Assembly: GCA_035712285.1 (NCBI GenBank)
Contig: DASTBA010000044.1
Coordinates: 1,954-65,953 of the forward strand
Reading direction: 5' to 3'
DNA from: Gemmatimonadales bacterium
Lineage (GTDB): Bacteria > Gemmatimonadota > Gemmatimonadetes > Gemmatimonadales > GWC2-71-9
Length of the DNA stretch: 64,000 nt
The notes under the pieces are model-generated. The model was not told the DNA's origin, made no database searches, and saw only the letters and a list, made by a program, of their open reading frames with translations. Made by a program: the position numbers and the translations under genes. How positions within the stretch are numbered: the first letter of the stretch is position 1; each line of letters opens with the position of its first letter. Positions 45,983 to 61,460 of this stretch are shown piece by piece.

Positions 45983-46936
45983 ATGACTCGACGTGCGCTC
46001 ATCACCGGCGGAGCCGGGTTCATCGGTTCCCACGTGGCGGAGGCGTACCTGGCCGACGGCTGGGACGTCACGGTGGTGGACGATCTCTCGCGGGGGCGCG
46101 AGGCCAACGTGCCGGCGCGCGCGACCTTCCGGAAACTGGATGTGCGGAGTCCCGAGGCGCGCACCGTGATCGCGGAAGGCGGCTTCAGCGTCGTGAACCT
46201 GCAGGCGGCCCAGATCGACGTGCGGCACTCGGTGGCCGATCCGGCACACGATGCCAGCATCAATCTGCTGGGTCTCCTCAACCTGCTCGAGGGCGCGGCG
46301 GCCGGGGGGGTACGGCGGGTGGTCTTCGCCAGCAGCGGCGGGGTGCTCTACGGCGAGGCGGACCAGGTGCCCACGCCCGAGTCGGCTCCGGTGGGGCCGG
46401 TGTCCCCCTATGGCGTGAGCAAGCTCGCCGGCGAGCACTACCTGCGCTGCCTGGCCGCCCTGCGCGGGCTGGAGTGGGTGGCGCTCCGCTACGCCAACGT
46501 CTTCGGCCCGCGCCAGGATCCCAGGGGCGAGGCCGGCGTGGTGAGCATCTTCCTCGACCGGCTGCGGCAGCGCGAGCCGCTCACCGTGTTCGGCGACGGA
46601 CTGCAGACGCGCGACTACGTGTACGTGCGGGACGTGGCCCGCGCCAACCTGCTGGCGGCCACGGCCGCGATGCCGGCGGCGTCCGATCACAACTCCAGCG
46701 CCTTCAACATCGGCACCGGGCGCGAGATCTCCGTGCTGGATCTCGCACGGATCATGGCGGCAACGCTCGATACCCGTCCCGAAGTCCGGCACGAGGCCCC
46801 GCGGGCGGGCGAGCTCGCGCGCAGCGCACTCGACGCCGGCAAGGCGAGGCAGATCCTGGGCTGGCTGCCGGCCCATTCCTTCGAGGACGGCTTCCGCGAG
46901 ACGGTGGCCTGGTACGATGCGGAGACGAACGGATGA
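45983..46936 (+). CDS. NAD-dependent epimerase/dehydratase (GalE-like SDR)
   Basis: ALITGGAGFIGSHV and SPYGVSKLAGE (YxxxK). The stop overlaps the tolQ start (ATGA). The track ORF 45542..46936 is an over-extension. Confidence 0.8.
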   Translation: MTRRALITGGAGFIGSHVAEAYLADGWDVTVVDDLSRGREANVPARATFRKLDVRSPEARTVIAEGGFSVVNLQAAQIDVRHSVADPAHDASINLLGLLNLLEGAAAGGVRRVVFASSGGVLYGEADQVPTPESAPVGPVSPYGVSKLAGEHYLRCLAALRGLEWVALRYANVFGPRQDPRGEAGVVSIFLDRLRQREPLTVFGDGLQTRDYVYVRDVARANLLAATAAMPAASDHNSSAFNIGTGREISVLDLARIMAATLDTRPEVRHEAPRAGELARSALDAGKARQILGWLPAHSFEDGFRETVAWYDAETNG

Positions 46937-47649
46937 TGCTGCTGCAACAGGGCGGAGCGGTACCCCAGAGCGTGCTCGAACTGGTGCGAACCTCGAGCAT
47001 CGAGACCAAGGTCGTGCTTGTGGTCATCGCCCTCTTCTCGCTGGCGAGCTGGTTCGTCATCGGCCTGAAGTGGTGGCAGTTCCGGCGGCTCAACCGCCAG
47101 GCCGAGCGTTTCTTCGCGGAGATGGAGCGAAGCACGCGGCTGGAGGAGGCCTACCAGCATGTGATGCGGCAGCCGGGATCGCCCTATACCCGTCTCTTCA
47201 GCGAGGCGATCCAGTTCTACAACGAACTGCGTCCCGGCGGGATGAAGGCGGGACCGGACGCACGGCACGACGTACTGACGCTCACCCAGCTCGAGGCGCT
47301 GAAGATGGTGCTGGGCAAGGAGGTCTCCTCCGAGCGGGACATGCTGGGACACTACATCACCTGGCTGGCGACCATCGGCTCCGTGGGCGTGCTCCTGGGG
47401 CTGCTCGGCACGGTGCTCGGCGTGATGGATGCGTTCATCGGCATCGCGACGCGCGGCTCGGGGAACATCGGGGCGGTGGCGCCCGGTGTGGCGGAGGCGC
47501 TGGTCACCACGGTGGCCGGCCTCGCGACCTCGATCCCGGCGATCATCGGCTACAACTACTTCGTGAACAAGGTGCGGCTCTTCACCGGGGAGCTCGAGGG
47601 CTTCGCCAACGAGCTGATCGGCACCATGGCGCGCGAGGGGCTGCTCTGA
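46933..47649 (+). CDS. tolQ: Tol-Pal system protein TolQ (MotA/TolQ/ExbB proton channel)
   Basis: Three TM segments and the conserved C-terminal GLLGTVLGVM.AF...........VAPGVAEALVTTVAGL. Confidence 0.85.
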   Translation: MMLLQQGGAVPQSVLELVRTSSIETKVVLVVIALFSLASWFVIGLKWWQFRRLNRQAERFFAEMERSTRLEEAYQHVMRQPGSPYTRLFSEAIQFYNELRPGGMKAGPDARHDVLTLTQLEALKMVLGKEVSSERDMLGHYITWLATIGSVGVLLGLLGTVLGVMDAFIGIATRGSGNIGAVAPGVAEALVTTVAGLATSIPAIIGYNYFVNKVRLFTGELEGFANELIGTMAREGLL

Positions 47650-47650
47650 G

Positions 47651-48085
47651 ATGGCGGGGAGCCTGGGCGGCGGGCTGGGCCAGCAGCGCGGCGACCTTCC
47701 GCTCAACGCGGACATCAATGTCACGTCGCTGGTGGACGTCGCCTTCGTGCTGCTGATCATCTTCATGATCACGGCCCCGATCATGCAGGGCGGCGTGGAC
47801 GTGCAGCTCCCGCGGGCCGAGGCGCGCCCGATCGAACCGAAGGAAGGCATGGTCGTCACGGTGAACCGGAGCGGGCAGATCTTCATCGACGAGACCGCGA
47901 TCACCTACAGCGACTTCAAGATCACGTTCCCGTCCATCGTGGCCGCGAAGAAGCCGAATGGCGTGTTCCTCCGGGCGGACAGCCGTGTCCCCTATGGCGA
48001 CGTGGTACGGGTGCTGGCCGTGATCCGGGTGGCCGGGGTGCAGAACGTGGGGCTCGTGGCGCAGGAGGAGGAGCAGGGCAAGTGA
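47651..48085 (+). CDS. tolR: Tol-Pal system protein TolR (ExbD/TolR family)
   Basis: INVTSLVDVAFVLLIIFMITAP (conserved Asp in the TM helix) and VFLRAD..VPYG.VV.V. Confidence 0.85.
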   Translation: MAGSLGGGLGQQRGDLPLNADINVTSLVDVAFVLLIIFMITAPIMQGGVDVQLPRAEARPIEPKEGMVVTVNRSGQIFIDETAITYSDFKITFPSIVAAKKPNGVFLRADSRVPYGDVVRVLAVIRVAGVQNVGLVAQEEEQGK

Positions 48086-48816
48086 TGGGGCGGGCCGGGG
48101 CGCAGCGTCCGCGGGGAGTGGCCGCCGGCTTCTGCTGGACGCTGGCGGTGCATGGGGCGGCGCTCGGCTTCCTGCTGGGCGTCGTGAAGGAACCGCCTCC
48201 CTCGCCGCCGGTGTATGCCATCGAGCTGGTCGCCGCGCCGCCGCCGTCTCCCCGCCAGCGGCTGGCGCCGGAGGCGCTGCCGACCGCACCTGCTCCGGAG
48301 CCGCCAGCGCCGGCCAGGTCCACTCCGAAGCCGGCCGAAAAGACCGCGCCGGTGCCGAAGCCGAAGGACACGCCGAAGGTGGAACCGAAGAAGCCGTCGC
48401 CCCCGTCCGCCGAGGCGAAGGCAAACGCGGAGCCGGCGGCGAAGACCTCGGCGCCGGAGGCCCCGGCACCGGGCGAGACGCCGAGCACCGGCCGCGATGC
48501 GACGACGGTCAAGACCCCGGGACTTGATTTCCCGTTTCCGGAGTACCTCCGGAACGTCGCCAACCAGATCTACCGCCGGTGGAGCCGCCCGACCGGCAAC
48601 GTGCGGCTGCGCGCCGAGATCTTCTTCCTCATTCACCGGGACGGATCGGTGACCGATATCCGCTTCGTGACACGCTCCGGCAGCTTCTCGTACGACCTCG
48701 ACGCCCAGGGCGCCATCGAGGCGTCGGGCCGGGCCGGCGCCTTCGGTGCGCTGCCCGACGGCTGGGCCAACGACGTACTACCGATCAGCTTCTACTTCGA
48801 GCCTCGCACCCAATGA
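48082..48816 (+). CDS. tolA: TolA-like / TonB-C-terminal-domain energy transducer
   Basis: N-terminal anchor, a Pro/Ala/Lys-rich spacer, and a C-terminal TonB_C-like fold (YL..V...I.R.W..P....LRAEIFFLIHRDGSVTDI). Its position between tolR and tolB supports the call. Confidence 0.7.
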   Translation: MMGRAGAQRPRGVAAGFCWTLAVHGAALGFLLGVVKEPPPSPPVYAIELVAAPPPSPRQRLAPEALPTAPAPEPPAPARSTPKPAEKTAPVPKPKDTPKVEPKKPSPPSAEAKANAEPAAKTSAPEAPAPGETPSTGRDATTVKTPGLDFPFPEYLRNVANQIYRRWSRPTGNVRLRAEIFFLIHRDGSVTDIRFVTRSGSFSYDLDAQGAIEASGRAGAFGALPDGWANDVLPISFYFEPRTQ

Positions 48817-50120
48817 GATCACATCTTCTGCTCGCGGGCCTGACCCTTGCCGCCGCGGCCGTCCCGCTGGCCGCGCAGAATCCCGACCAGGACCGGGCGC
48901 AGGACGCAATCCGCATCGGGATCACCTACCGGCCGGGCACGCGCCCCGGGATGGTGGTGGTGCCCGGTCCGGGGCTGGACTCGGTCCGGGCGATCGTGCG
49001 CCGCGATCTCGACTACAGCGACAAGTTCCAGATGATCGCGGTGCCGCTCACCGGCGCGGGCGGGCCGCTCAACGCGGATCTCTACCATCGCCAGTTCGGG
49101 GCTGACCAGGCGGTGGAGATCCTGCCGGCGCCGGGCGGGGTCCAGGTCCGGCTGCACGACCTCGCCGCCGGACGCATGCGCAACCAGCAGTCGTTCGCCC
49201 TGCCGCCGGCAACGTCATCCGCATTCCGCCTGGCGGTGCACCGGGTCAGCGACGAGATCGTGCGCTGGGCGGCGGGCAGCGACGGGTACGCCGCGAGCCG
49301 GCTGCTGTATCTCGAGAATGGCCGCATCTGGCGGGTGGACAGCGACGGAGCCGACGCGACGCCGGTGACGCCCGCCAATGAACGCGCGCTCTCCAACGCC
49401 TGGGCGCCGGACGGCCGGCGCATCGCGTACACCCGCTTCGATGCCGGCCGCGGCGCGATCGTGATCGAGGATCTCCAGACGGGGGCGCGCAGCGTGGTGG
49501 CGGGCACCGACCGCGACCTCAACTTCGCCCCCGCATTCTCCCCCGACGGGCGGATGATGGCGTACTCGCGTGCGGAAGAGAGCGGCGCCACCAACATCTT
49601 CACCAGCAATGTGGCCTCCAACTGCTGTGCGCAGCGCTTGACCGTGCGCGGCTTCTCGGACAACTTGAGTCCCACGTACTCGCCGGACGGGCGCCGCATC
49701 GCCTTCGTCTCGACCCGGGCCGGCCCGCCGCAGATCTACGTGATGAGCGTGGACGGCACCGACCAGGAGCTGCTGGCGGCGTTCGATTTCGGGGCGACGG
49801 GGCCGTCGTTCGCGCCGGAATGGTCCCCGGATGGCGCGAGCGTGGTGTTTCACCGCGAGGTTTCCCGGAGCCCGCAGATCTTCATCCTGGACGTCGCCTC
49901 CGGCCGCGTGAAACAGCTGACGTCGGTGGGGCGGAACGAGGACGCCACATGGGCGCCGGACAGCCGGCACATCGCGTTCGTGTCGGACCGGACCGGGCGC
50001 CGGCAGCTGTGGGTGGTGGACACCGAGACGGGACGTGTCCGGCAGATCAGCACGGCGGGCGCCGCCCGCCTTCCTTCGTGGTCCCGCCGGCTCGGCGGGG
50101 CCGGTGGTGCCAATCCTTAA
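48813..50120 (+). CDS. tolB: Tol-Pal system beta-propeller protein TolB
   Basis: Signal peptide followed by repeated WxPDG blades (WAPDGRRIAY, FSPDGRMMAY, YSPDGRRIAF, WSPDGASVVF, WAPDSRHIAF). Confidence 0.88.
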   Translation: MRSHLLLAGLTLAAAAVPLAAQNPDQDRAQDAIRIGITYRPGTRPGMVVVPGPGLDSVRAIVRRDLDYSDKFQMIAVPLTGAGGPLNADLYHRQFGADQAVEILPAPGGVQVRLHDLAAGRMRNQQSFALPPATSSAFRLAVHRVSDEIVRWAAGSDGYAASRLLYLENGRIWRVDSDGADATPVTPANERALSNAWAPDGRRIAYTRFDAGRGAIVIEDLQTGARSVVAGTDRDLNFAPAFSPDGRMMAYSRAEESGATNIFTSNVASNCCAQRLTVRGFSDNLSPTYSPDGRRIAFVSTRAGPPQIYVMSVDGTDQELLAAFDFGATGPSFAPEWSPDGASVVFHREVSRSPQIFILDVASGRVKQLTSVGRNEDATWAPDSRHIAFVSDRTGRRQLWVVDTETGRVRQISTAGAARLPSWSRRLGGAGGANP

Positions 50121-50142
50121 AAGCGTACTGGAGTGCCGAGTC

Positions 50143-50742
50143 ATGAAGCGAATCAGCGGAATCCTGGTCCTGATGGGTGCATCGGTCCTGGCGGCGGGCT
50201 GCGGCGGCAAGCCCGCGCCGGAGCAGCCGGCCCCGGTGGCGTCCACGGTGGACAGCGCGGCCATCCGCGCGCGCCAGCGCCAGGACTCGATTGATGCGGA
50301 GAACCGGCGCCGGGCCGAGGACGAGGCGCGCCGCGCCGCCGCCGCCAACGCCGCGTCGGAGGCGATGGCCGCCCTCCGGAACGACATGACGGCCATGATC
50401 CACTTCGACTACAACGTGGCTGACATCCGGCCGGAGGATCAGGGGATCCTCGACCGCAAGGCGGCCATCCTGAACGCGAATGCCGCGGTCCGGCTCCGGA
50501 TCAGCGGGCACGCCGACGAGCGGGGCTCCGACGAATACAACCTCGCGCTCGGCAACCGCCGCGCTGCCGCGGCCAAGCGCTACCTGGTCAACCGGGGCGT
50601 GGCGGACAGCCGCATTGACGTGATCTCGTACGGCGAGGAGCGGCCCATCGCGATGGGCAGCACCGAAGAGGCCTACGCGCAGAATCGCCGGGACGAGTTC
50701 GAGATGACGGCGGGCGGTGACGCGCTCGTCGCGCCGCAATGA
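50143..50742 (+). CDS. pal: Peptidoglycan-associated lipoprotein Pal (OmpA-like)
   Basis: Lipobox VLAAGCGG. OmpA_C domain: IHFDYNVADIRPE....L......L......L.ISGHADERGSDEYNLALGNRRAAAAKRYLV..GV. Confidence 0.88.
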   Translation: MKRISGILVLMGASVLAAGCGGKPAPEQPAPVASTVDSAAIRARQRQDSIDAENRRRAEDEARRAAAANAASEAMAALRNDMTAMIHFDYNVADIRPEDQGILDRKAAILNANAAVRLRISGHADERGSDEYNLALGNRRAAAAKRYLVNRGVADSRIDVISYGEERPIAMGSTEEAYAQNRRDEFEMTAGGDALVAPQ

Positions 50743-51536
50743 TCCGGCGCGGCCTGGTGGCGGTGTCCGCGCTGCTCCTCGGGGCGTGTGCCCTGAGGAG
50801 CGACGTGCGGCGGGTGGAGGACCAGGTCACCCAGCTGCGGGACGTCCAGGAGCGGCGGGACACGGAGCGCGCCCGCCAGCTGGCGGACATCATCCGGCTG
50901 CAGCAGGCGATGCTGGACTCCATTGCCAGCACGAAGGCGTCGGTGGCGCAGCTCCGCGGCGACGTGGCCAACGACCTCTACAACGTGCAGCAGCAGCTGG
51001 TGCAGCTGCAGGAACTGACCGGCCAGAGCCAGCGGCGGCTGACCGAACTCCGCACCCAGCTCGAGCGGCGGGCCGAAGAGCTGCAGCAGTCGGGTGAATC
51101 GACGGGTGCCGCCCCGCCCCGGGACAGCACGGCCGGCGCCGCGCCTCCTGCGGCCCCGCAGCCCTCCGCCGACCAGATGTACGAGACGTCCCTCGGCCAG
51201 CTGCGGCTGGGCAGCGCCAGCACGGCGCGCCTGGGCTTCCGCGAGATGCTCAAGGCCTGGCCGGCGAGTGACAAGGCGCCGGACGCGGTGTACTACATCG
51301 GCCAGAGCTTCGAGACGGAGAACGCCGATTCGGCGCTGTACTACTACACGCAGGTGACACAGAGCTATGCCTCGTCGCCGCGCGCGGGCGCCGCGTACTA
51401 TCACATCGGGCTGATCAGGGAGCGCGCCAACGACAGGGCCGCCGCCCGCGCGGCGTACCAGAAGGTGGTCCAGGGCTTTCCCAACTCGGACGAGGCCTCG
51501 CTCGCCCGCGACCGTCTGAAGGCGCTCGGGTCCTGA
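50739..51536 (+). CDS. cpoB: Tol-Pal system protein CpoB/YbgF
   Basis: Signal/lipobox (LLLGACAL), an N-terminal coiled coil, and C-terminal TPR units (ALYYYTQV...YASSPRAGAAYYHIGLI). ATGA overlap with pal. Confidence 0.75.
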   Translation: MIRRGLVAVSALLLGACALRSDVRRVEDQVTQLRDVQERRDTERARQLADIIRLQQAMLDSIASTKASVAQLRGDVANDLYNVQQQLVQLQELTGQSQRRLTELRTQLERRAEELQQSGESTGAAPPRDSTAGAAPPAAPQPSADQMYETSLGQLRLGSASTARLGFREMLKAWPASDKAPDAVYYIGQSFETENADSALYYYTQVTQSYASSPRAGAAYYHIGLIRERANDRAAARAAYQKVVQGFPNSDEASLARDRLKALGS

Positions 51537-51564
51537 GCCCGGGCGCCGCCGCCTGGTTCCCGCC

Positions 51565-54500
51565 ATGAACGGCTCCGGCGCCGAAATGCCGTTCCTCGAC
51601 CACCTCGAGGAACTCCGAACCCGCCTCCTCCGCGCGCTGATCGCGCTGGTGGCGGGTTTTGCGCTGGGGTTCTACCTGGTCCAGCGGTACCAGCTCGTCG
51701 GCGTCATCTCGAAGCCGATCCAGCCGTTCCTGGGCGCCACCGGCAAGCTCACGGTGCTCACGCCCACCGAGCCGGTGATGATCGTGTTCAAGCTGGCCTT
51801 CGTCGTGGGCCTCGTGTTCGCCGCGCCGTTCGTGCTCTGGCAGATCTGGGCCTTCCTCGCGCCGGCGCTGTACCTGAAGGAGAAGCGGGTCATCGTGCCG
51901 GCACTGTTCGTCGGCAGCGGGCTGTTTGTGGTGGGCGCCGTCCTCGGCTGGCTGTTCGTCGTCCCGCAGTCGCTGCGGGTGCTCTTCAGCTTCCAGACCG
52001 AAGCGCTCTCGCCGATGATCACCTACGACGGATACTTCTCCTTCCTCGTGCAGGTGCTCATCGCCCTCGGCGTGTCCTTCGAGCTGCCCCTCATCATCTT
52101 CGTGCTCGCGTGGCTCGGCGTGGCCACGCCGGCCCGGCTCAACAGCTTCCGGCGGTTCGCCATCGTGCTGGCGTGCATGGCAGGCGCGATCCTCTCCCCC
52201 GGCACCGATCTCATCACGATGGTGATGTTCACCATCCCGCTGCTCATCCTCTACGAGATCGGCTTCCTGGCGAGCGTGCTGCTCAGCCGGCGGCGCCGGA
52301 AGGTGGAGGCCGCCGCCGTCCTCGTGCTGCTGCTGCTGGGCGCCGGCCGGGCGGACGCGCAGGGCGTGCCGGGGCGAGCCAGGCCGGCGCCTGCGGACAC
52401 CGGCAAGCCCGCGCCTGCCGCCCGGACCGACTCGCTGCGCCCCGATTCGGCGCTCCAGGCCCAGGGAACGGACAGCGTGCTCGACGCACTGCTGCAGCGC
52501 GCCGGCTTTGTGGTGACGAAGTACCGGGCGGACTCGGCGTCCTTCACGGCCAGCGACCGGCGGCTGGAGCTCAACGGTCATGCGCATGCCGAACGGGAGG
52601 GGGCCGTGCTCGATGCCCGGCACATCGCCTACGACCAGGCGGAGTGTCTCCTCACCGCGAACGGGAAGCCGGTCCTGAAGGAGGGCGAACGGACCCTCGC
52701 GGGCGAGGGAATCCGCTATGACACCTGCCGCAAGCGCGGCACGGTGCATGGCGGCCAGACGGAGTTCTCCGAGGGAGGAACGACCTGGTTCATCCGCGGG
52801 AATGTGCAGAAGGATTCCAGCTCCACGCGGCTCTTTGCCGGCTCGAGCGAGATCACCTCGTGCGTGCTGCCCTCGCCGCACTATCACTTCGCCGCCCGCC
52901 GCATCAAGTGGCTGTCGGGCGACATGCTGGTGGCGCGGCCGGTGGTGCTCTACATCCGCGACGTCCCGATCCTCTGGCTGCCGTTCATCTTCCAGGACAC
53001 GCGGCCGGGCCGCCATTCGGGCATCCTGGTGCCCAAGGTCGGCATCAACGACATCTTCCGGACCTCCCGCACCTACAATCGCCAGATCACCAACATCGGC
53101 TATTACTGGGCGCCCAGTCCCTATCTGGACCTCACGGCGCGCATGGACTGGTATTCGGGGCGCTATCTCCAGTTCGGCGTGGCCAGCCAGTATCGCGTGC
53201 TCAACCGGTTCCTGAGCGGGGCACTGGAGGTGAACCGGCAGTTCGAGTCGGGCGGGGGCAGCGGCTTCGGGGTGCGGTGGTCCCACCAGCAGGCGTTCAA
53301 CATCTCGACCAACCTGAACCTCGACATCAACTACCTGAGCAACACGAAGATCGTGGACCGGAATGCCCTCGATCCGCTCCTCAACACGCAGCAGGTGACC
53401 AGCAGCTTCAACTTCACCAAGCGATACGGGTGGGGGTCGCTGTCGCTGGGCGGCAATCGCCGGCAGAACCTGTCCGACAGCACCTCCACCACCCAGCTGC
53501 CGTCGCTCACCATCTCGCCCAAGCCGCTGGACCTGGGGCGGAACATCACCTGGACGCCGGGACTCAGTCTCGTGCGGACGGAGGACCGGAACCGCCCGCT
53601 GGCGCCGCTCCTGGTGTTCAATCCGGATGGCAGCACCGACACGGTGCCGCAGGTGGCCAGCAACCGGGTGACGTCGCTCAACTTCGACACGCCGTTCCGG
53701 ATCGGCGGCTTCAACTGGCGGAACACGCTGACGATGCAGGACGCCCGCCTGAGCGGCCGGCAGGTGGACTCGCTGCGGCAGCCGGACCTGACCACGCCGG
53801 ACCCGAACGACTCGGTCACCGTCTACACCACCGCCCCCGGCGATTTCGAGACCGACCTCAACTGGGACACCGGCATCAACCTGCCGCTCCTCCTGCGTTC
53901 GACTTGGAAGTTGCAGCCAAGTGTCGGCATCACCAACGCCTCGACCCAGAGTCCGTACTATGCGGTGCGCAACCGGGAAACGGGCGGGGCCTGGGTCTTC
54001 CAGAAGAAGCGCCTGCTCCTGAGCGCCACGCTCTCGCCGACCTTCTTCTTCCTGTCCCGGGGCGGCATCGGGCCGGTCACGCGGTTCCGCCACAGCTTCT
54101 CCCCGCTGATCCGCTGGGACTACGCACCGGCAGCCACCGTGCCCGAGGCCTTTGCCCGGGCCGTGGTCGGGCCCAATGGCACGCCGGTGCTGCGAAGCGA
54201 CGCCCGCCAGACGCTGAGCGTCTCGCTCACCCAGAGCCTGGAGGGGAAGGGGCGGTCCAGGCCGGGCGATTCCCTGGGCGTCTCCGCGCGGAAGTTCCGC
54301 ATCCTGAGCATCTCCACCAGTGGCGTCACCTACGACTTCGAGCAGGCGAAGAAGCCGGGGATGAACGGGTGGACCACGCAGAGCGTCACGAACACCGTCC
54401 TCAGCGACCTGCTGCCGGGGTTCAACGTGAGCATCACGCACAACCTCTGGGCGGGGCAGGTGGGCGTGGACACTTCCCGGTTCTCGCCGTTCCTGCAGAA

Positions 54501-55056
54501 CGTGAGCGCGAGCTTCTCCATCACGGGAGGGGGTTCCCGGGGGCTCTCGTCGCCGTTCGGCACCGGGCTCTCGCCCCGGCCGGGCCAGATGGATCCTGCC
54601 GGCCAGCCGCTCTACCGGCCCGGGATCGGCACATCGAATTTCGGCCCGACCGGCTTCGGCACCGGCCCGCAGAGTCCGGGCGCCTTCTACTCGAACGACC
54701 AGATTCCGATGGGCGGCGGCCGCCGGTTCTCGGCGAACTTCACCTACACGCTCTCGCGCCAGCGGCCCAATCCGCTGGCGGCCCCCGGCGCCCAGTCCTC
54801 CCAGCAGAACGTCAATTTTTCCACGGCATTCTCGCCGACGCCGCTCTGGGCGGTGTCGTGGCAGACCCAGTACAACATCACCGAGAAGCGGTTCGAGTCG
54901 CATGTGGTCCGGCTGGAGCGGGACCTGCACGACTGGCGCGCCGCCTTCAATTTCGTCCGCAATGCGAACGGCAACGTGGCGGTCTATTTTTCGGTGTACC
55001 TGATCAATCTCCCCGAGCTGAAGCTGGACTTCAACCAGTCCACCCTCGGGAACTGA
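51565..55056 (+). CDS. Single 1163-codon ORF encoding a complete TatC domain fused in frame to a complete LptD/OstA-like outer-membrane protein
   Basis: Residues 1-245 read as TatC: MPFLDHLEELRTRLL plus six TM segments, ending LLSRRRRK. A signal-peptide-like segment follows (AAAVLVLLLLGAGRADA/QG). Next comes an OstA_N-like region (LELNGHAHAEREGAVLDARHIAYD). Then LptD barrel motifs appear (CVLPSPHYHFAARRIKW, VPILWLPFIFQDTRPGRHSGILVP, IGYYWAPSPYLDLTARMDWYSGRY). No stop codon occurs anywhere in this frame. Confidence 0.8.
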   Translation: MNGSGAEMPFLDHLEELRTRLLRALIALVAGFALGFYLVQRYQLVGVISKPIQPFLGATGKLTVLTPTEPVMIVFKLAFVVGLVFAAPFVLWQIWAFLAPALYLKEKRVIVPALFVGSGLFVVGAVLGWLFVVPQSLRVLFSFQTEALSPMITYDGYFSFLVQVLIALGVSFELPLIIFVLAWLGVATPARLNSFRRFAIVLACMAGAILSPGTDLITMVMFTIPLLILYEIGFLASVLLSRRRRKVEAAAVLVLLLLGAGRADAQGVPGRARPAPADTGKPAPAARTDSLRPDSALQAQGTDSVLDALLQRAGFVVTKYRADSASFTASDRRLELNGHAHAEREGAVLDARHIAYDQAECLLTANGKPVLKEGERTLAGEGIRYDTCRKRGTVHGGQTEFSEGGTTWFIRGNVQKDSSSTRLFAGSSEITSCVLPSPHYHFAARRIKWLSGDMLVARPVVLYIRDVPILWLPFIFQDTRPGRHSGILVPKVGINDIFRTSRTYNRQITNIGYYWAPSPYLDLTARMDWYSGRYLQFGVASQYRVLNRFLSGALEVNRQFESGGGSGFGVRWSHQQAFNISTNLNLDINYLSNTKIVDRNALDPLLNTQQVTSSFNFTKRYGWGSLSLGGNRRQNLSDSTSTTQLPSLTISPKPLDLGRNITWTPGLSLVRTEDRNRPLAPLLVFNPDGSTDTVPQVASNRVTSLNFDTPFRIGGFNWRNTLTMQDARLSGRQVDSLRQPDLTTPDPNDSVTVYTTAPGDFETDLNWDTGINLPLLLRSTWKLQPSVGITNASTQSPYYAVRNRETGGAWVFQKKRLLLSATLSPTFFFLSRGGIGPVTRFRHSFSPLIRWDYAPAATVPEAFARAVVGPNGTPVLRSDARQTLSVSLTQSLEGKGRSRPGDSLGVSARKFRILSISTSGVTYDFEQAKKPGMNGWTTQSVTNTVLSDLLPGFNVSITHNLWAGQVGVDTSRFSPFLQNVSASFSITGGGSRGLSSPFGTGLSPRPGQMDPAGQPLYRPGIGTSNFGPTGFGTGPQSPGAFYSNDQIPMGGGRRFSANFTYTLSRQRPNPLAAPGAQSSQQNVNFSTAFSPTPLWAVSWQTQYNITEKRFESHVVRLERDLHDWRAAFNFVRNANGNVAVYFSVYLINLPELKLDFNQSTLGN

Positions 55057-55176
55057 CCGTCCCTGCGGTGAGACAGTACGGGCCCGCCGGGCTGGAGATG
55101 ACCGGGCCGCCATCTGCCTCGTGCTGGCACAGGCTGTGCGCTCGCGACCTTCATCACCCTCTGGAGATGAGACCTC

Positions 55177-56019
55177 ATGTACCGACTGTTCGCCCTGGCG
55201 GCCGCGGGCATCCTGGCGGCATGCAGTTCGGACTCGACCGGGCCCGGCACGCCCCCCCCGACCCCCAGCGGCCTCAGCTCGACATCGCTCGATGGGGCGG
55301 TGGCCCTGGACTGGCCGGACAACGCGTTCGAGGCGGACCCCTCGAACTTCAGCAACTACGTGGTGTACAGCACCAGCTACAACCTGGACCAGGATCAGTG
55401 CGGGACCGGCTGGAACGTGGAGGGAACGACGGTCGCGCCGGAATTCATCGTGGGCGCACTGACCAACGGCGTGCCGCGCTGCTTCGGCGTGTCGGCGGTG
55501 AGCGTCGGCGGGAACGAGAGCGGGCGGTCACCGCTGCGGAACGATACGCCGCGGCCCGATGCGCGGAACGTGGTCGTCTATGCGCGGCAGTCCCAGAACA
55601 CCGGATCGGGCTTCCGGTTCTGGCAGGATCTCAATGGCAATGGCACCGTGGAGAGCAATGAGCTGGGCCTTTCGCTCGCGGGCTCGGATGCCGGCGCGGA
55701 CTTCACCGTCGAGCGCGACGGGACCGGCAATCTGTTTCTCACGCCGGCGCGGGCCGGCACCACGGTGGCGCTGTACGGGACGGCTCCGGTAGAGGATCTC
55801 ACGAGCATCGATATTGCGCCCGTCAGCGGGTACGATGCCGCAGGACTCGAGGCGCTGCCCGGGTGGGGCTACGTGTTCCAGATGACGGAGCCGGACGCGT
55901 TCTTCCGCTATGGGGCGGTGCGCGTCACGCACGTGGGGCAGAACTTCCTCATCCTGGACTGGGCCTACCAGACCGACCCCGGCAATCCGGAGCTGCTGCG
56001 CCGTTCCACCCATGACTGA
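55177..56019 (+). CDS. Lipoprotein with fibronectin-III-like domain, unknown function
   Basis: Lipobox ILAACSSDSTGP. An FN3-like segment follows (PSGLSSTSLDGAVALDWPDN....NFSNYVVYST). It overlaps hutH by 8 nt. Confidence 0.6.
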   Translation: MYRLFALAAAGILAACSSDSTGPGTPPPTPSGLSSTSLDGAVALDWPDNAFEADPSNFSNYVVYSTSYNLDQDQCGTGWNVEGTTVAPEFIVGALTNGVPRCFGVSAVSVGGNESGRSPLRNDTPRPDARNVVVYARQSQNTGSGFRFWQDLNGNGTVESNELGLSLAGSDAGADFTVERDGTGNLFLTPARAGTTVALYGTAPVEDLTSIDIAPVSGYDAAGLEALPGWGYVFQMTEPDAFFRYGAVRVTHVGQNFLILDWAYQTDPGNPELLRRSTHD

Positions 56020-57556: not shown

Positions 57557-57582
57557 GGCCCGAGCGGCGGGCCTATCTTTTT
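57557..57582 (+). terminator. Weak intrinsic terminator candidate downstream of hutH
   Basis: GGCCCG agcgg CGGGCC (6-bp GC stem) followed by TATCTTTTT. Confidence 0.4.
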
Positions 57583-57626: not shown

Positions 57627-59939
57627 ATGAATCTAGAGAAGCTCAAGGACACGGCCCGGAAGCACGAGCAGAAGGAGGACTGGCGGAAGGCCATTGACGC
57701 CTACCAGAAGATCATCCAGCAGTTTGACGCCGGCCGTGACGCCGACGCCGACCTCACCATCTACAACCGGGTCGGGGATCTCCAGCTCAAGCTGAATGAC
57801 CCCGGCGCCGCCGTGCAGTCCTACGAACGGGCGGCGGAGCTCTACGCCGAACAGGGATTCCTCAACAACGCCATCGCGCTCTGCGGCAAGGTGCTGCGGG
57901 TGAACCCGGGCCGGGTGCAGGTGTACCTGCAGCTGGCGCACCTGCACGCGCGGAAGAACGTCGTGTCGGAGGCCAAGCGGAATCTCATCGAGTACATGGA
58001 GCGGATGAACACGCTCGGCAAGCTCGATGAGGCCTTTGCCCAGCTCAAGGCCTTCGCCGACCAGCACAGTGCCAACCAGGACATCCGGATGATGCTGGTG
58101 GAACTGCTGCGGGCCGCCTCGCGCGCCGAGGAGGCGCAGGAGCAGCTGGAGAAGATCGCCACCGAGCTGGAGGCGCGCGGTGACCGGGCGGGCGCCCGGC
58201 TGACGCGCGAGCGGCTCCAGCCCGCCGGCAGGGAGGAGTCGCCGGAGCCGGCGGCCAAGAATGACCTGGTGTTTCTCGAGACCGGATTCGAGCCGCCGCG
58301 CGCGCCCACCCGCGAACCGGCAGCAGCCGCAGCGGCGCCAGAGCCAGTCCCGGTCCCGGCTCCGGCGCCGGTGGAAGGGCTGGAGGTGGTGGCTGGAGGG
58401 GCGGTACCGGGCGTGGAGGACGCGGCCCCGGCCCCGATTGCCGGGCTCGACGTATTCGAGCCGGCGTCGCTGGATGCTGGCACGGCGGAAGCGGGCCCGT
58501 TGCTGGATCTGCAGGCAGGGAGTTTCGAGCCGGAAGTGGCCCCGGAGATCGCGCCGGTGGAAGGGCTGGACCGCGTGTCGGCCGACGACGCCATGGCGGT
58601 CGGCGGCGAGCTCGACATCATCCATGCCCCCGACCTGGCCGATTCGCTGCTGGGCGACGCGCTCCCGGCCGAGCCGGAGTCGGGTGATGCGGCGGTGGAA
58701 CTGACGGATACCGGGTTCACCGACCGCTACCTGGATGATTTCGACATCGGCGATCCGCTGTCGCTGGAGTCCCGGCGCTCGGAGTCGGAGGACCTCCTCG
58801 AAGAGGAGGAGCCGCTCCTGCCGTCGCCGGAACTGGCGTCGGACATCCTCAGCCTTCCCGATGAGGCGGTTCCACCGGCACCAGCGGATTCCACGGCCCT
58901 GTCGGAGCTCCAGATTCCGGAGCTGGAGGACCGGATCATTGACGATCCGGAGAGCGGCGAACTGCATCGCGCGCTGGCCGACCGCCTGGTGCGGGAGGCG
59001 GACCTCGGCCGCGCGGTCGAGGAATACCTGCTCGCCATCGGCGCTTTCGAGCACCATGACGCGTGGATGCCCGCGCTGGATGCGGTGGACGCGCTGCTCG
59101 AGGTCGAGCCCGATGCAATCCGGCATCAGCAGAAGCGGGTCGAGCTGGCCTATCGCAGTGGCGACCGTGACCGGCTGCTCGCGGCGTACCTGAGCCTGGC
59201 CGAAGCCCTGGTCCGGGCCGAAGCGCTGGACAAGGCGATCGCGGTCTACCACCGGGTCCTCGAACACAATCCCGACAACGCCTCGGCGCGCGATGCGCTG
59301 ACCTGGCTCGCCTCCGTGCAGCAGCAGAAGGCGCCCGCAGCCGAGGAGAAGCCGGTCGCGGCGCCGGCAGTCCTGCCCGTCCCGCCCGCCTCGTCCGTCT
59401 CGTCCGCCGGCTTCGTGGACCTGGGGTCGATGGTGATCGAGCCGGGCGACCCGATGGACACGCGCATGCGGGTGGACGGCGAACGCCCGACCGGCGATGA
59501 GCAGAAGGACTTCCAGGAAACCCTGGCGCAGTTCAAGAAGGGCATCGAGGCGAACCTCGGCACGGAGGACTACGAGGCGCATTACGACCTCGGCGTCGCC
59601 TTCAAGGAAATGGGGCTCCTCGACGAGGCCATCGCCGAGTTCCAGAAGGCACTGCGGTCGCCCGATGGCCGGCTCCGGACCTCGGAGGCACTGGGCGTCA
59701 CATTCTACGAGAAGCAGCAGTATGCGATCTCCGAAACCATCCTGCGGCGGGCGGTGGAGTCGCTGCCCGGCGGCGACGAGGAGAAAATCGGCTTGCTGTA
59801 CTGGCTGGGCCGCTCGTCCGAGGCACTCGGCAAGCCGGCGGACGCGCGGCAGGCCTACGAGCGGGCCCTCGCGGTGGACATCCGGTTCATGGACCTGGGC
59901 GAGCGGGTGAAATCCCTCGGCGCGGGACAGCGGGCATGA
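57627..59939 (+). CDS. Large TPR protein with central acidic Pro/Ala/Glu/Asp-rich disordered region
   Basis: 770 aa. N-terminal TPR-like helices come first, then about 250 residues of acidic low complexity (EPVPVPAPAPVEGLE...DLLEEEEPLLPSPE). C-terminal TPRs follow (DYEAHYDLGVAFKEMGLLDEAIAEFQKAL). The track ORF starts 59 codons upstream. Confidence 0.7.
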   Translation: MNLEKLKDTARKHEQKEDWRKAIDAYQKIIQQFDAGRDADADLTIYNRVGDLQLKLNDPGAAVQSYERAAELYAEQGFLNNAIALCGKVLRVNPGRVQVYLQLAHLHARKNVVSEAKRNLIEYMERMNTLGKLDEAFAQLKAFADQHSANQDIRMMLVELLRAASRAEEAQEQLEKIATELEARGDRAGARLTRERLQPAGREESPEPAAKNDLVFLETGFEPPRAPTREPAAAAAAPEPVPVPAPAPVEGLEVVAGGAVPGVEDAAPAPIAGLDVFEPASLDAGTAEAGPLLDLQAGSFEPEVAPEIAPVEGLDRVSADDAMAVGGELDIIHAPDLADSLLGDALPAEPESGDAAVELTDTGFTDRYLDDFDIGDPLSLESRRSESEDLLEEEEPLLPSPELASDILSLPDEAVPPAPADSTALSELQIPELEDRIIDDPESGELHRALADRLVREADLGRAVEEYLLAIGAFEHHDAWMPALDAVDALLEVEPDAIRHQQKRVELAYRSGDRDRLLAAYLSLAEALVRAEALDKAIAVYHRVLEHNPDNASARDALTWLASVQQQKAPAAEEKPVAAPAVLPVPPASSVSSAGFVDLGSMVIEPGDPMDTRMRVDGERPTGDEQKDFQETLAQFKKGIEANLGTEDYEAHYDLGVAFKEMGLLDEAIAEFQKALRSPDGRLRTSEALGVTFYEKQQYAISETILRRAVESLPGGDEEKIGLLYWLGRSSEALGKPADARQAYERALAVDIRFMDLGERVKSLGAGQRA

Positions 59940-61200: not shown

Positions 61201-61208
61201 GAGGCCAT

Positions 61209-61460
61209 GTGTTCGGCAATCTCGGCATGCCGGAGATCCTGCTCATCCTCGTGGTGGTGCTGCTGGTGTTCGGAGCCAAGCGGCTGCCCGAGGTGGGCTC
61301 GTCCATCGGCAAGGGAATCCGGGAATTCAAGCGGAGCCTGAGCGACACGCAGGATGCCATCTCCGGCGGCGACGAGCAGCAGCGGACCCTGTCGTCGCGC
61401 CAGATGGATGCGTCGCAGCCGCCCGCGAACAGCGGCGAGCCCAAGCGCCTGTCGCAGTAG
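61209..61460 (+). CDS. tatA: Twin-arginine translocase subunit TatA/E
   Basis: GTG start 4 nt after GGAGG. The translation (M)FGNLGMPEILLILVVVLLVFGAKRLPEVGSSIGKGIREFKRS is near-consensus TatA. Confidence 0.85.
   Translation: MFGNLGMPEILLILVVVLLVFGAKRLPEVGSSIGKGIREFKRSLSDTQDAISGGDEQQRTLSSRQMDASQPPANSGEPKRLSQ

What the first reader, a model, noticed from the sequence alone, without database searches (positions are those of the whole stretch)
51565..55056. Complete TatC fused in frame to a complete LptD-like outer-membrane barrel through a signal-peptide-like seventh helix
**Seen in sequence**
- One uninterrupted 1163-codon frame runs through the whole region.
- The first ~245 residues read as a full six-TM TatC, ending LLSRRRRK.
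- Next comes AAAVLVLLLLGAG-RADA/QG (nt 52276-52360).
- About 900 residues follow with OstA_N-like and LptD barrel motifs.
- I see no convincing SD/start for independent initiation at the in-frame GTGs 52276 or 52303.

**Established knowledge**
- The TatC C-terminus is cytoplasmic.
- LptD is a Sec-exported, BAM-assembled barrel.
- Signal peptidase I uses the -3/-1 AxA rule.

**Inference**
- The basic cluster followed by a hydrophobic stretch obeys the positive-inside rule. It would insert N-in/C-out, so the fusion is topologically legal.
- It could be an internal signal peptide that releases LptD after cleavage at ADA/QG, giving obligate 1:1 co-synthesis of an inner-membrane translocase subunit and the LPS insertase.
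- I do not know of a described TatC-LptD fusion.
- The ORF lies 28 nt downstream of the complete Tol-Pal cluster, while tatA is 6 kb away.
Basis: partly seen in the sequence, partly recalled or inferred. Interest (0 to 1): 0.7.

Follow-up and report, generated by a model that had tools for sequence, protein, structure and literature searches.

The report
Conserved natural TatC–LptD fusion gene
In a whole order of soil bacteria (Gemmatimonadales), the inner-membrane Tat translocase subunit TatC and the outer-membrane LPS insertase LptD are made as one polypeptide joined through LptD's own signal peptide, which most likely is cut afterwards to release two normal proteins.

Summary
Window 51565-55056 (+) is one 1163-codon ORF. 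It holds a complete TatC (aa 8-246), a signal-peptide-like segment (aa 242-265, RRRRK + hydrophobic run + ADA|Q), a low-complexity linker, and an LptD-type beta-jellyroll plus barrel.

It is not an assembly artefact. More than 1000 database proteins share the architecture, and so do the best 80 GTDB species loci returned (all kept), down to 46% identity. All sit directly after the tol-pal-cpoB cluster.

Unfused relatives in eight other contexts have tatC and lptD as adjacent genes, from a 4-nt overlap to a 5-nt gap. Their LptD starts with an ordinary N-terminal signal peptide that ends in the same A-x-A|Q, followed by the same linker. So the "seventh helix" is LptD's ancestral signal peptide, captured when TatC's tail and stop codon were deleted. 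This seems to have happened at least three times.

Several features argue that signal peptidase I still cuts the fusion. The -1 residue stays small, +1 Gln is invariant, some linkers are only 6-10 residues, and fused and unfused sisters interchange. Cleavage itself, and the absence of second gene copies, remain untested. No publication describing the fusion was found.

Verdict: real, moderately interesting, a new variant of a known kind.

The parts
51565..55056 (+). Whole tatC::lptD fusion ORF (1163 codons plus stop)
   Evidence: Homologues with the same architecture.
51565..52287 (+). TatC core, aa 1-241 (six TM helices)
   Evidence: Pfam PF00902 covers aa 12-225 (E 1e-56) and TIGR00945 scores 188 bits, above its cutoff. 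Aligns to 4B4A over aa 8-250. Foldseek TM-score to solved TatC chains is 0.80-0.84. E15/E16, E106 and E173 are invariant or nearly so.
52288..52302 (+). Basic cluster RRRRK (aa 242-246). It is TatC's cytoplasmic post-TM6 positive patch and also serves as the n-region of the internal signal peptide.
   Evidence: Conserved at 0.86 majority fraction. Net charge is +3 to +6 in 78 loci. The equivalent TRKKKE is present in Aquifex TatC.
52303..52347 (+). Hydrophobic h-region VEAAAVLVLLLLGAG (aa 247-261) of the internal signal peptide
   Evidence: The uncharged run is 10-21 aa (mean 15.7) in 78 loci. Sequence conservation is low at 0.55. pLDDT is below 50 and the segment is not packed on TatC. It is homologous in position to the N-terminal signal peptide of unfused LptD.
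52348..52362 (+). c-region and predicted signal peptidase I site R-A-D-A(265)|Q(266)
   Evidence: -1 is A 68, G 7, S 3. -3 is mostly A/L/G/T/V. +1 is Q in 78 of 78. Q266 is invariant in alignment A1. The same A|Q boundary occurs in unfused LptD, TolB and LysM precursors.
52363..52470 (+). Pro/Arg/Asp/Ser/Thr-rich low-complexity linker (aa 267-302) at the N-terminus of predicted mature LptD
   Evidence: Rich in indels and poorly conserved at 0.47. Length is 6-80 aa in fused forms and 11-93 aa in unfused forms, median 53 in both. pLDDT is below 50.
52471..52815 (+). LptD N-terminal beta-jellyroll (aa 303-417), OstA/LptA-like
   Evidence: DSSP strands span 318-417 with pLDDT 74-82. Weak TIGR03002 LptA match at aa 345-399. 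Included in the Foldseek alignments to full-length LptD.
52816..55053 (+). Conserved connector (aa 418-505, includes QDxRPGRHSG) and large C-terminal beta-barrel (about aa 506-1145) of LptD_2 type
   Evidence: Pfam PF19838 (E 2e-30). About 26-29 long strands predicted. Foldseek hits 7omm_A, 8h1s, 4q35 and 5iv9 with E 8e-21 to 1e-16.
50739..51536 (+). TPR lipoprotein (CpoB/YbgF-like), last gene of the Tol-Pal cluster. It ends 28 nt before the fusion ORF.
   Evidence: Pfam TPR_6/TPR_16. This position is conserved in all loci with upstream DNA. No terminator-like site lies between it and the fusion.
46900..50742 (+). tolQ - tolR - TonB_2 (TolA-like) - tolB - pal cluster upstream
   Evidence: Pfam MotA_ExbB, TonB_2, PD40 and OmpA. 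Synteny conserved in the 80 loci and in unfused relatives.
61209..61460 (+). tatA (TatA/B/E family), about 6 kb downstream. The start coordinate is approximate.
   Evidence: The ORF translation contains [29 protein letters not shown]. The same position after polyprenyl synthase and DUF4321 carries PF02416 in relatives.

Best explanation
This is a genuine, vertically inherited gene fusion that works as a two-protein precursor (a polyprotein).

**Ancestral state (shown in relatives).** tatC and lptD were adjacent, translationally coupled genes at the end of the tol-pal-cpoB cluster.

**How the fusion arose (inferred).** A short deletion removed TatC's acidic C-terminal tail, its stop codon, and the start codon and n-region of lptD. 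That joined TatC's post-TM6 basic cluster directly to the hydrophobic core of LptD's Sec signal peptide.

**How it is made and processed (inferred).**
- TatC is inserted co-translationally, N-in and C-in.
- The former signal peptide then inserts N-in/C-out like a seventh TM segment.
- This starts Sec-dependent export of the roughly 900-residue LptD moiety.
- Signal peptidase I cuts after A-D-A265.
- That releases mature LptD starting at Gln266, for chaperone and BAM-dependent assembly in the outer membrane.
- TatC is left carrying the uncleared signal peptide as an extra C-terminal helix.

**Net effect.** The same two functional proteins result as in unfused relatives. The differences are obligate 1:1 synthesis and co-translational membrane delivery of LptD.
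For: **Fusion is real and conserved**
- 1034 and 882 homologues scored in two searches. Every one of the 120 listed in each has both PF00902 and PF19838 and is 1034-1218 aa long, the few below about 1125 aa being partial entries.
- All 80 species-representative loci kept by the scan show the fusion. 74 are intact in one frame. None has a stop at the junction.

**Both halves look functional**
- Majority-residue conservation is 0.80 for TatC and 0.70-0.83 for LptD.
- Divergence of the two halves is correlated (r = 0.94).
- TatC residues E15/16, E106 and E173 are invariant.

**Ancestral state**
- Eight unfused contexts have cpoB-(nrdR)-tatC-lptD, from a 4-nt overlap to a 5-nt gap.

**The junction is LptD's own signal peptide**
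- Unfused LptD precursors begin M/V + short n-region + hydrophobic run + A-x-A|Q(V)(P).
- They then carry the same P/R/D/S/T linker and the 'DSV..LL.R.GY' jellyroll start.

**Cleavage site is maintained in fused forms**
- -1 is A/G/S in 78 of 78. -3 is A/L/G/T/V in 74 of 78. +1 is Gln in 78 of 78.
- The h-run is only 10-21 aa.
- A|Q is also the usual signal-peptide boundary of TolB (43/65) and LysM (34/40) orthologues in these genomes.

**Against a permanent tether**
- Linkers are as short as 6-10 aa (P0019, P0017).
- The linker length distribution is identical in fused and unfused forms.

**Fused and unfused forms interchange**
- Fused and unfused sisters are interleaved in the tree: P0123/P0125, P0127/P0124, P0183/P0185, P0181/P0204.
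- The shared nrdR insertion supports the P0183/P0185 pairing.

**No conserved internal start**
- 19 of 78 loci have no usable in-frame start codon.

**Structure**
- The h-region and linker have pLDDT below 50 and do not dock on TatC.
Against: - No direct evidence of cleavage. No SignalP or DeepTMHMM was available and no proteomics exists.
- 59 of 78 loci, including this window (GTG 52276 = V238), do have an in-frame GTG near the end of TM6. That could in principle start an independent pre-LptD with a good n-region. Some internal initiation in some species cannot be excluded.
- Whether SPase I can reach a site behind a six-TM protein in this organism is assumed by analogy.
- The tree is neighbour-joining without support values, so the number of fusion events is approximate.
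- A second tatC or lptD elsewhere in the genomes was not excluded. Only the 64-kb window was checked.
- The AlphaFold model is of moderate quality (mean pLDDT 65.8).
Confidence: 0.75

Rival explanations
1. Uncleaved trans-envelope protein. The hydrophobic segment is a permanent seventh TM anchor. LptD stays covalently tied to TatC, and the low-complexity linker spans the periplasm, physically linking the Tat translocase (or the inner membrane) to the LPS insertase.
For: - The single frame is conserved.
- The median linker of about 53 disordered residues could in principle span about 15-18 nm if fully extended.
- The gene sits next to the trans-envelope Tol-Pal genes.
Against: - Some fused members have linkers of only 6-10 residues, which cannot reach across a periplasm.
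- The SPase I-type -3/-1/+1 pattern is kept as strictly as in unfused precursors, where it is certainly a cleavage site.
- The hydrophobic run is short, at 10-21 aa with a mean of 15.7, and ends with Gly/Pro-containing c-regions.
- Close sister lineages are unfused with no other change in LptD architecture.
Confidence: 0.07
2. Two products by internal translation initiation. LptD precursor is mainly made from an in-frame GTG near the end of TM6 (52276 in the window). The read-through fusion is a tolerated by-product of a lost tatC stop codon.
For: - 59 of 78 loci have an in-frame GTG/ATG/TTG upstream of the h-region with basic residues after it.
- In the window, GTG 52276 would give MLLSRRRRKVEAAAVLVLLLLGAGRADA|Q, a plausible signal peptide.
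- The unfused ancestors used coupled re-initiation at this position.
Against: - 19 of 78 loci have no such codon, and no alignment column holds a conserved Met or Val.
- No SD-like sequence precedes 52276 or 52303.
- Without a stop codon, every ribosome translating tatC continues into lptD, so the fusion polypeptide is made in any case.
- The fused state has persisted over divergence down to 46% identity without regaining a stop.
Confidence: 0.1
3. Artefact or pseudogene. A sequencing or assembly error, or a strain-specific lost stop, created a meaningless read-through.
For: - Two long-read MAG loci (L056, L079) do carry frameshifts, which shows that assembly errors occur in this gene.
- Unfused relatives exist.
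Against: - The same in-frame junction is found in more than 1000 proteins from NCBI, JGI, ENA and Logan assemblies, and in 74 intact GTDB species loci.
- The two frameshifts lie inside TatC (aa ~100-118), not at the junction.
- Both halves are under strong conservation.
Confidence: 0.01
4. Functional coupling beyond co-synthesis. The tethered arginine-rich signal peptide engages TatC's own signal-peptide binding and insertase site, or the retained seventh helix stands in for a TatB-like partner. In this reading the fusion changes how Tat or LptD export works.
For: - The junction carries consecutive arginines next to a hydrophobic segment.
- TatC alone is reported to have signal-peptide insertase activity (review PMC13186574).
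- Only one TatA/B-family gene is seen near the locus.
Against: - The arginines are TatC's normal post-TM6 patch, present in Aquifex TatC and in unfused relatives.
- Unfused LptD signal peptides have no twin-arginine motif.
- The h-region sequence is poorly conserved at 0.55 and does not dock on TatC in the model.
- A 900-residue unfolded barrel precursor is not a plausible Tat passenger (established knowledge of Tat and BAM pathways).
Confidence: 0.05

Closest known systems
TatC (PF00902 / TIGR00945), e.g. Aquifex aeolicus TatC (PDB 4B4A) and E. coli TatC (9DZZ/9E01)
   Same: - Full-length alignment over aa 8-250, about 38% identity to 4B4A.
- Six helices, TM-score 0.80-0.84.
- Conserved Glu residues and the post-TM6 basic patch.
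   Different: - It has no stop codon after the basic patch.
- The acidic C-terminal tail seen in unfused relatives is missing.
- It is encoded away from tatA, after tol-pal.
- The mature protein would carry an extra C-terminal hydrophobic helix if cleavage occurs as proposed.
LptD of the LptDE LPS translocon (PDB 7OMM, 8H1S, 4Q35, 5IV9); Pfam LptD_2 (PF19838)
   Same: - N-terminal beta-jellyroll plus a very large C-terminal barrel.
- Foldseek E 8e-21 to 1e-16 at probability 1.00.
- Pfam LptD_2 above its cutoff.
- Unfused orthologues are named 'putative LPS assembly protein LptD' by NCBI.
   Different: - Only 8-14% identity to solved LptDs.
- Far below the proteobacterial LptD equivalog cutoffs (NF002997, 21.8 bits against 683).
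- A long low-complexity N-terminal linker.
- Three invariant Cys in the jellyroll region rather than the E. coli disulphide pattern (the comparison is from my own knowledge).
- The signal peptide is internal.
Unfused tatC-lptD gene pairs of related Gemmatimonadota lineages (loci L081, L082, L083, L086, L087)
   Same: - Same operon position after tol-pal-cpoB.
- Same LptD signal-peptide end (A-x-A|Q), linker and domains.
- 34-45% identity in the LptD part.
   Different: - tatC keeps a 20-25-residue tail and a stop codon.
- lptD has its own GTG/ATG start and n-region, with a 4-nt overlap up to a 5-nt gap between the genes.
Bacterial polyproteins split by signal peptidase at an internal signal peptide, e.g. 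Bradyrhizobium japonicum FbcH (cytochrome b-c1 precursor). This rests on my own knowledge; it was not retrieved in the paper search.
   Same: One ORF encodes a polytopic inner-membrane protein, followed by an internal signal peptide and an exported partner. Processing yields two mature proteins.
   Different: - FbcH joins two subunits of one complex.
- Here the two products belong to unrelated machines in different membranes, and the second product is an outer-membrane barrel that must travel on to BAM.
- Cleavage is unproven here.
Bacteroidetes Q-rule (Gln at +1 of signal peptidase I substrates, cyclised to pyroglutamate; PMC5837995, PMC10653852)
   Same: +1 Gln is invariant at the internal site and frequent in TolB, LysM and unfused LptD precursors of this clade.
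   Different: - The rule was described as Bacteroidetes-specific, and Gemmatimonadetes are not mentioned in that paper.
- Only three protein families were examined here, with a crude heuristic.
- Glutaminyl cyclase was not looked for.

Membership tests
TatC (twin-arginine translocase subunit C) | Match to the family HMMs above the curated cutoffs | tested here: met
   PF00902 scores 192.4 bits (cutoff 25.1). TIGR00945 scores 188 bits (cutoff 132.7).
TatC (twin-arginine translocase subunit C) | Six-TM glove-like fold with both termini cytoplasmic | tested here: met
   Helices 9-41, 69-101, 104-142, 154-183, 189-210 and 216-24x in the model. TM-score 0.80-0.84 to 4B4A, 9E01 and 9DZZ. End-to-end alignment to 4B4A. 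Topology is inferred from homology.
TatC (twin-arginine translocase subunit C) | Conserved acidic residues used for twin-arginine recognition and the TM4 polar Glu (E. coli E15, E103, E170; numbering from my own knowledge) | tested here: met
   E15/E16, E106 (in PALYxxE) and E173 (in SFELP) are invariant or nearly so in 37 fusion proteins.
TatC (twin-arginine translocase subunit C) | TatA-family partner encoded in the genome | tested here: met
   TatA-like ORF at about 61209-61460. PF02416 genes are at the same position in relatives.
TatC (twin-arginine translocase subunit C) | Tat transport activity; only tatC of the genome | not testable with these tools
   Only the 64-kb window could be checked for a second copy, and none was found.
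LptD (LPS-assembly outer-membrane protein) | N-terminal OstA/LptA-type beta-jellyroll | tested here: met
   Strands 318-417 with pLDDT 74-82. TIGR03002 LptA weak hit at aa 345-399. Faint PF03968/PF13100 hits in orthologues.
LptD (LPS-assembly outer-membrane protein) | Very large (26-strand) C-terminal beta-barrel | tested here: inconclusive
   About 26-29 long strands are predicted between aa 506 and 1145. The first barrel segment (aa 416-509) has pLDDT below 50, so the strand count is uncertain. The best fold matches are all LptD, with E 8e-21 to 1e-16 and TMt 0.41-0.53.
LptD (LPS-assembly outer-membrane protein) | Match to a curated LptD family model | tested here: met
   Pfam LptD_2 PF19838 scores 106.4 bits (cutoff 22.5). 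NCBI names unfused orthologues 'putative LPS assembly protein LptD'.
LptD (LPS-assembly outer-membrane protein) | Match to proteobacterial LptD equivalog models (NF002997, NF003358) | tested here: not met
   21.8 and 12.9 bits against cutoffs of 683 and 944. It is a distant LptD_2-type member, not an equivalog of E. coli LptD.
LptD (LPS-assembly outer-membrane protein) | LptE-like plug lipoprotein partner; LPS transport function | not tested
   A conserved 280-aa lipoprotein follows the gene. It has no family match and was not modelled.
Sec-type signal peptide cleaved by signal peptidase I | Positive n-region, 7-20-residue hydrophobic h-region, c-region with small residues at -1 and -3 | tested here: met
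   In 78 loci the net charge is +3 to +6 and the h-run is 10-21 aa. -1 is A/G/S in 78 of 78, and -3 is A/L/G/T/V in 74 of 78.
Sec-type signal peptide cleaved by signal peptidase I | Located at the N-terminus of the precursor | tested here: not met
   It lies at aa 242-265, behind a six-TM protein. In unfused orthologues the homologous segment is N-terminal.
Sec-type signal peptide cleaved by signal peptidase I | Actual cleavage | not testable with these tools
   This needs proteomics or a western blot. No signal-peptide predictor was available.
Twin-arginine (Tat) signal peptide | S/T-R-R-x-F-L-K motif belonging to the passenger's signal peptide | tested here: not met
   The arginines are TatC's own post-TM6 patch. 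Unfused LptD signal peptides (MRAGW.., VRGFG.., MMRFLAIV..) lack a twin-arginine motif.
Signal-peptidase-processed bacterial polyprotein (FbcH type) | One ORF: polytopic membrane protein, internal signal peptide, exported protein | tested here: met
Signal-peptidase-processed bacterial polyprotein (FbcH type) | Two mature products demonstrated | not testable with these tools
   Requires experiment.

The most novel reading that the evidence does not exclude
The fusion may not be a neutral polyprotein.
- **Option 1:** a fraction stays uncleaved and forms a covalent inner-to-outer-membrane link next to Tol-Pal.
- **Option 2:** the signal peptide retained on TatC acts as a functional seventh helix, for example taking a TatB/TatA-type site or TatC's signal-peptide groove. 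Tat activity and LPS-insertase biogenesis would then be mechanistically coupled in Gemmatimonadales.

The evidence does not exclude this for the long-linker majority. It argues against it through the short-linker members, the poorly conserved h-region and the free interchange with unfused forms.
Probability: 0.1. Interest if true: 0.85.

Novelty: new variant of a known kind. Interest (0 to 1): 0.55.

Why it matters
- **A natural test of OMP export.** In the best-studied bacteria, outer-membrane barrels are exported after or late in translation with cytosolic chaperones. Here a 900-residue essential barrel precursor is necessarily delivered to the membrane co-translationally, as the tail of a polytopic inner-membrane protein. 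This holds across a whole bacterial order and arose several times. It shows such delivery is compatible with periplasmic chaperoning and BAM assembly.
- **Gene evolution.** It shows how 4-nt-overlap translational coupling can collapse into a fusion, with a signal peptide reused as an internal processing site.
- **A 7-helix TatC.** The model predicts a TatC that permanently carries a spent signal peptide. That is relevant to how TatA and TatB dock on TatC.
- **Annotation.** More than 1000 database entries are named only 'TatC', which hides the organism's LptD. Surveys of LPS-transport genes in Gemmatimonadota may wrongly score LptD as absent.
- **Signal peptides.** The conserved +1 Gln hints that the 'Q-rule' extends beyond Bacteroidetes.

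Tried and rejected
- **Assembly error or lost stop:** rejected by conservation.
- **Motif-only detection of fusions:** exact-pattern matching of the TatC and LptD motifs gave only 43 of 80 loci because the patterns were too strict. It was replaced by BLASTP coverage of stop-free frames.
- **Cultured strains:** a second homologue search seeded with a 'Gemmatimonas sp.' locus returned only MAG proteins. No experimental host was identified.
- **Literature:**
  - Five searches found nothing on a TatC-LptD fusion: TatC/LptD/fusion/Gemmatimonadetes, Gemmatimonas + TatC, Gemmatimonadota + LptD, internal signal peptide/polyprotein/fbcH, and Q-rule.
  - 'TATC' hits were primer strings.
  - The FbcH precedent therefore rests on my own knowledge.
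- **First signal-peptide heuristics on the window:** these were too strict, or confounded by Pro in c-regions. They were replaced by a first-polar-residue count, which is still crude.
- **LptD as a Tat substrate tethered to its own receptor:** rejected, because the arginines belong to TatC and unfused LptD signal peptides are Sec-type.
- **Downstream 280-aa lipoprotein as an LptE analogue:** not followed. It has no Pfam match and an Fn3-like hint in one orthologue.
- **Second tatC or lptD in the same genomes:** could not be tested.

Full report

Yes. Window 51565-55056 (+) is one uninterrupted frame of 1163 codons (junction sequence).

- **TatC half.**
  - Pfam finds TatC (PF00902) over aa 12-225 (E 1e-56).
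  - NCBIfam's tatC equivalog scores 188 bits, above its cutoff of 132.7.
  - Residues 8-250 align end-to-end with the crystallised Aquifex TatC (4B4A). The alignment includes the basic patch after TM6, SRRRRK here and TRKKKE there.
- **LptD half.**
  - Pfam finds LptD_2 (PF19838) from aa 456 (E 2e-30), and there is a weak LptA-like match at aa 345-399.
  - An AlphaFold2 model built on 37 homologues has mean pLDDT 65.8. The jellyroll and barrel are mostly at 70-90.
  - In the PDB its best matches are LptD chains of LptDE complexes (7OMM, 8H1S, 4Q35, 5IV9; E 8e-21 to 1e-16). TatC chains come next (TM-score 0.80-0.84).
- **Surroundings.**
  - The ORF begins 28 nt after a TPR (CpoB-like) gene that closes a tolQ-tolR-TonB_2-tolB-pal cluster.
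  - tatA lies about 6 kb downstream, at about 61209-61460.

**2. Is it an artefact?**

No.

- A homologue search returned 1034 scored relatives. All 120 listed are 1125-1218 aa and carry both Pfam domains. Identity falls from 99% to 54%, and the sources are NCBI, JGI, ENA and Logan assemblies.
- A second search, seeded from the most divergent locus, gave 882 more of the same kind.
- In a scan of one genome per GTDB species, the best 80 loci all encode the full-length protein, down to 46% identity. Nearly all are labelled Gemmatimonadales, Gemmatimonadaceae or Gemmatimonadota.
- 74 of these loci have one intact frame covering aa 1 to ~1160.
- Four are cut by contig ends. Two long-read MAGs have a frameshift inside TatC (aa ~100-118), not at the junction.
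- Synteny is constant: LysM gene, tolQ, tolR, TonB_2, tolB, pal, cpoB, the fusion, usually a 280-aa lipoprotein, hutH, then a TPR gene, all on one strand.
- No terminator-like site separates cpoB from the fusion. The first convincing one is at 57557-57573, after hutH.
- Both halves are strongly conserved, with majority-residue fractions of 0.80 for TatC and 0.70-0.83 for LptD. Their divergences are correlated (r = 0.94), as expected for one vertically inherited functional gene.
- The TatC glutamates corresponding to E. coli E15, E103 and E170 are invariant. The E. coli numbering is from my own knowledge.

**3. What is the junction?**

Across 78 loci the pattern is the same:

| Element | Finding in 78 loci |
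|---|---|
| Basic cluster | net charge +3 to +6 |
| Uncharged Ala/Leu-rich run | 10-21 residues, mean 15.7 |
| c-region | often contains Gly or Pro |
| -3 residue | A/L/G/T/V in 74 of 78 |
| -1 residue | A 68, G 7, S 3 |
| +1 residue | Gln in 78 of 78, often followed by V-P |

- After the site comes an indel-rich Pro/Arg/Asp/Ser/Thr linker, and then the conserved jellyroll start 'DSV..LL.R.GY..TRY'.
- The hydrophobic run is poorly conserved in sequence (0.55), whereas Q266 is invariant.
- In the model this run and the linker have pLDDT below 50 and do not pack on TatC.

**4. The decisive comparison: unfused relatives.**

I searched the LptD part alone against 1.84 billion cluster representatives. 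This recovered fused forms (P0122, P0123, P0126, P0127, P0181, P0183) and many unfused LptD-like proteins of 900-1040 aa at 33-45% identity.

- **Same precursor design.**
  - The unfused proteins start with an ordinary N-terminal signal peptide that ends in the same A-x-A|Q(V)(P). Examples are MRAGWIAAFALALAATSGVA|QVP and MMRFLAIVAALLLGALLPATAEA|QRR.
  - The same low-complexity linker and jellyroll start follow.
- **Same gene neighbourhood.**
  - Eight such genes sit directly after a separate tatC in the same tol-pal context.
  - The spacing runs from a 4-nt overlap (GTGA/ATGA; L082, L083, P0185) through 1-nt and 3-nt gaps to a 5-nt gap (L081, L086, L087).
  - There, TatC carries a 20-25-residue Glu/Ala/Arg-rich tail after its basic patch.
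- **What the fusion lacks.** The fused forms lack that tail, the stop codon and the lptD n-region.

The "seventh helix" is therefore LptD's ancestral Sec signal peptide. TatC's own positive patch now serves as its n-region.

**5. How often did it happen?**

A neighbour-joining tree of the LptD part (93 sequences, no support values) shows three things.

- Most fusions fall in one large clade that contains the query.
- That clade also contains truly unfused members: P0124 as sister of fused P0127, and P0125 as sister of fused P0123.
- P0181 and P0183 are lone fused members of otherwise unfused clades.

P0183 and its unfused sister P0185 share an nrdR gene inserted between cpoB and tatC, which the main fused clade lacks. 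This points to at least three independent fusions, or some reversions. That is plausible because a small deletion at a 4-nt overlap is enough. The exact count is uncertain.

**6. Most likely mechanism (inferred).**

The gene encodes a polyprotein.

- TatC inserts co-translationally.
- The former signal peptide inserts N-in/C-out and starts Sec-dependent export of the LptD moiety.
- Signal peptidase I cuts after Ala265.
- Mature LptD, starting at Gln266, goes on to the outer membrane.
- TatC retains the spent signal peptide as an extra C-terminal helix.

Arguments for continued cleavage:

- (a) The -3/-1/+1 pattern is kept as strictly as in the unfused precursors, where it is certainly a cleavage site.
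- (b) A|Q is the usual signal-peptide boundary of other exported proteins in these genomes. It holds for TolB in 43 of 65, LysM protein in 34 of 40 and unfused LptD in 47 of 80, against a 17% background share for Q.
- (c) Some fused members have only 6-10 residues between the site and the jellyroll (P0019, P0017). That is too short for an uncleaved protein to reach the outer membrane.
- (d) The linker length distribution is the same in fused and unfused forms, with a median of 53 in both.
- (e) Fused and unfused sisters interchange without other architectural change.
- (f) The hydrophobic run is of signal-peptide length, not TM length.

**7. Rivals.**

- **Internal initiation.**
  - It cannot be excluded everywhere. 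59 of 78 loci, including this window (GTG 52276), have an in-frame start candidate near the end of TM6.
  - But 19 of 78 have none, and no column holds a conserved Met or Val.
  - No SD-like sequence precedes the window's GTGs.
  - Without a stop codon the read-through polypeptide is made regardless.
- **Permanent inner-to-outer-membrane tether.** Disfavoured by points (a)-(f) above.
- **Self-engagement of TatC by the arginine-rich segment.**
  - The arginines are TatC's native patch.
  - Unfused LptD signal peptides are not twin-arginine type.
- **Artefact.** Refuted (section 2).

**8. Comparison with what is known.**

- The components are ordinary: a canonical TatC and a distant, LptD_2-type LptD. 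The LptD fails the proteobacterial equivalog models (21.8 bits against a 683 cutoff).
- The arrangement resembles signal-peptidase-processed bacterial polyproteins such as Bradyrhizobium FbcH (cytochrome b-c1). This comparison is from my own knowledge and was not retrieved in the paper library.
- It differs in joining proteins of two unrelated machines in two membranes.
- Databases already hold more than 1000 such entries, named only 'TatC'.
- Five full-text searches found no paper that mentions the fusion. A 2026 Tat review lists other TatC oddities but not this one.

**9. What remains open.**

- Cleavage is unproven.
- Second copies of tatC or lptD elsewhere in these genomes were not excluded. 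Only the window was checked, and none was found.
- No cultured carrier was identified.
- The strand count of the barrel is uncertain, because aa 416-509 are poorly modelled.
- The number of fusion events rests on an unsupported NJ tree.

**10. Verdict.**

The fusion is best seen as a new variant of a known kind: a naturally recurring TatC-LptD polyprotein with an internal, probably cleaved, signal peptide. It derives from tightly coupled neighbouring genes.

- Interest: moderate (0.55). It would surprise envelope-biogenesis specialists and is directly testable, but the likely outcome is two normal proteins.
- Confidence that the fusion is real: about 0.99.
- Confidence that it is processed as proposed: about 0.75.

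Noticed in passing
window 44668-45822 (LysM protein), 48813-50120 (TolB), 52348-52362 (LptD site); loci L001-L080: Exported proteins of this clade very often have Gln as the first residue after the signal peptide (..LAA|QN..AEA|QV). Counts are TolB 43/65, LysM 34/40 and unfused LptD 47/80, against a 17% background. This resembles the 'Q-rule', which was described as Bacteroidetes-specific (PMC5837995). It may extend to Gemmatimonadota.
   Followed up: partly
window 55177-56019 (+): A 280-aa predicted lipoprotein (MYRLFALAAAGILAAC|SS..) with no Pfam match lies directly downstream of the fusion in most loci (53 hits). A gene of unknown function also follows lptD in unfused relatives, with an Fn3-like hint in L086. 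It may be an LptD partner, but its function is unknown.
   Followed up: no
L056 (about 9957-13491) and L079 (about 6102-9673): Two long-read MAG loci (MFD assemblies) have a frameshift inside the TatC half at about aa 100-118, while the junction stays in frame. These are probably assembly or homopolymer errors rather than pseudogenes.
   Followed up: partly
L005 (JBLMWC010000166.1): A contig with the complete tol-pal and tatC::lptD locus, 59% identical to the query, belongs to a MAG labelled 'Bacillota bacterium'. This is most likely mis-binning or a wrong label.
   Followed up: no
window 59936-61460 (+); L081-L084: tatA is not next to tatC. It sits after a polyprenyl synthase and a DUF4321 gene, and this arrangement is conserved in fused and unfused relatives. 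Only one TatA/B-family gene is seen in these regions.
   Followed up: partly
L084 7504-8001, L085 7486-7995, L086 2633-3172, L087 3657-4124: In several lineages an nrdR gene (Zn_ribbon_NrdR + ATP-cone) is inserted between cpoB and tatC. The main fused clade lacks it. It serves as a synteny marker for independent fusion events.
   Followed up: partly
window 52816-53079 (aa 418-505): The segment between jellyroll and barrel (…VLYIRDVPILWLPFIFQDTRPGRHSGILVP…) is the most conserved part of the LptD half at 0.83. Yet it is modelled with pLDDT below 50. It may be the plug or first-strand/lateral-gate region of LptD_2-type proteins.
   Followed up: no
window 51415-55113 (-): A 1232-codon antisense ORF overlaps the whole fusion gene, and there are several other long shadow ORFs. 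This is typical of high-GC DNA (GC3 0.93 in the sense frame). It is not a gene.
   Followed up: partly
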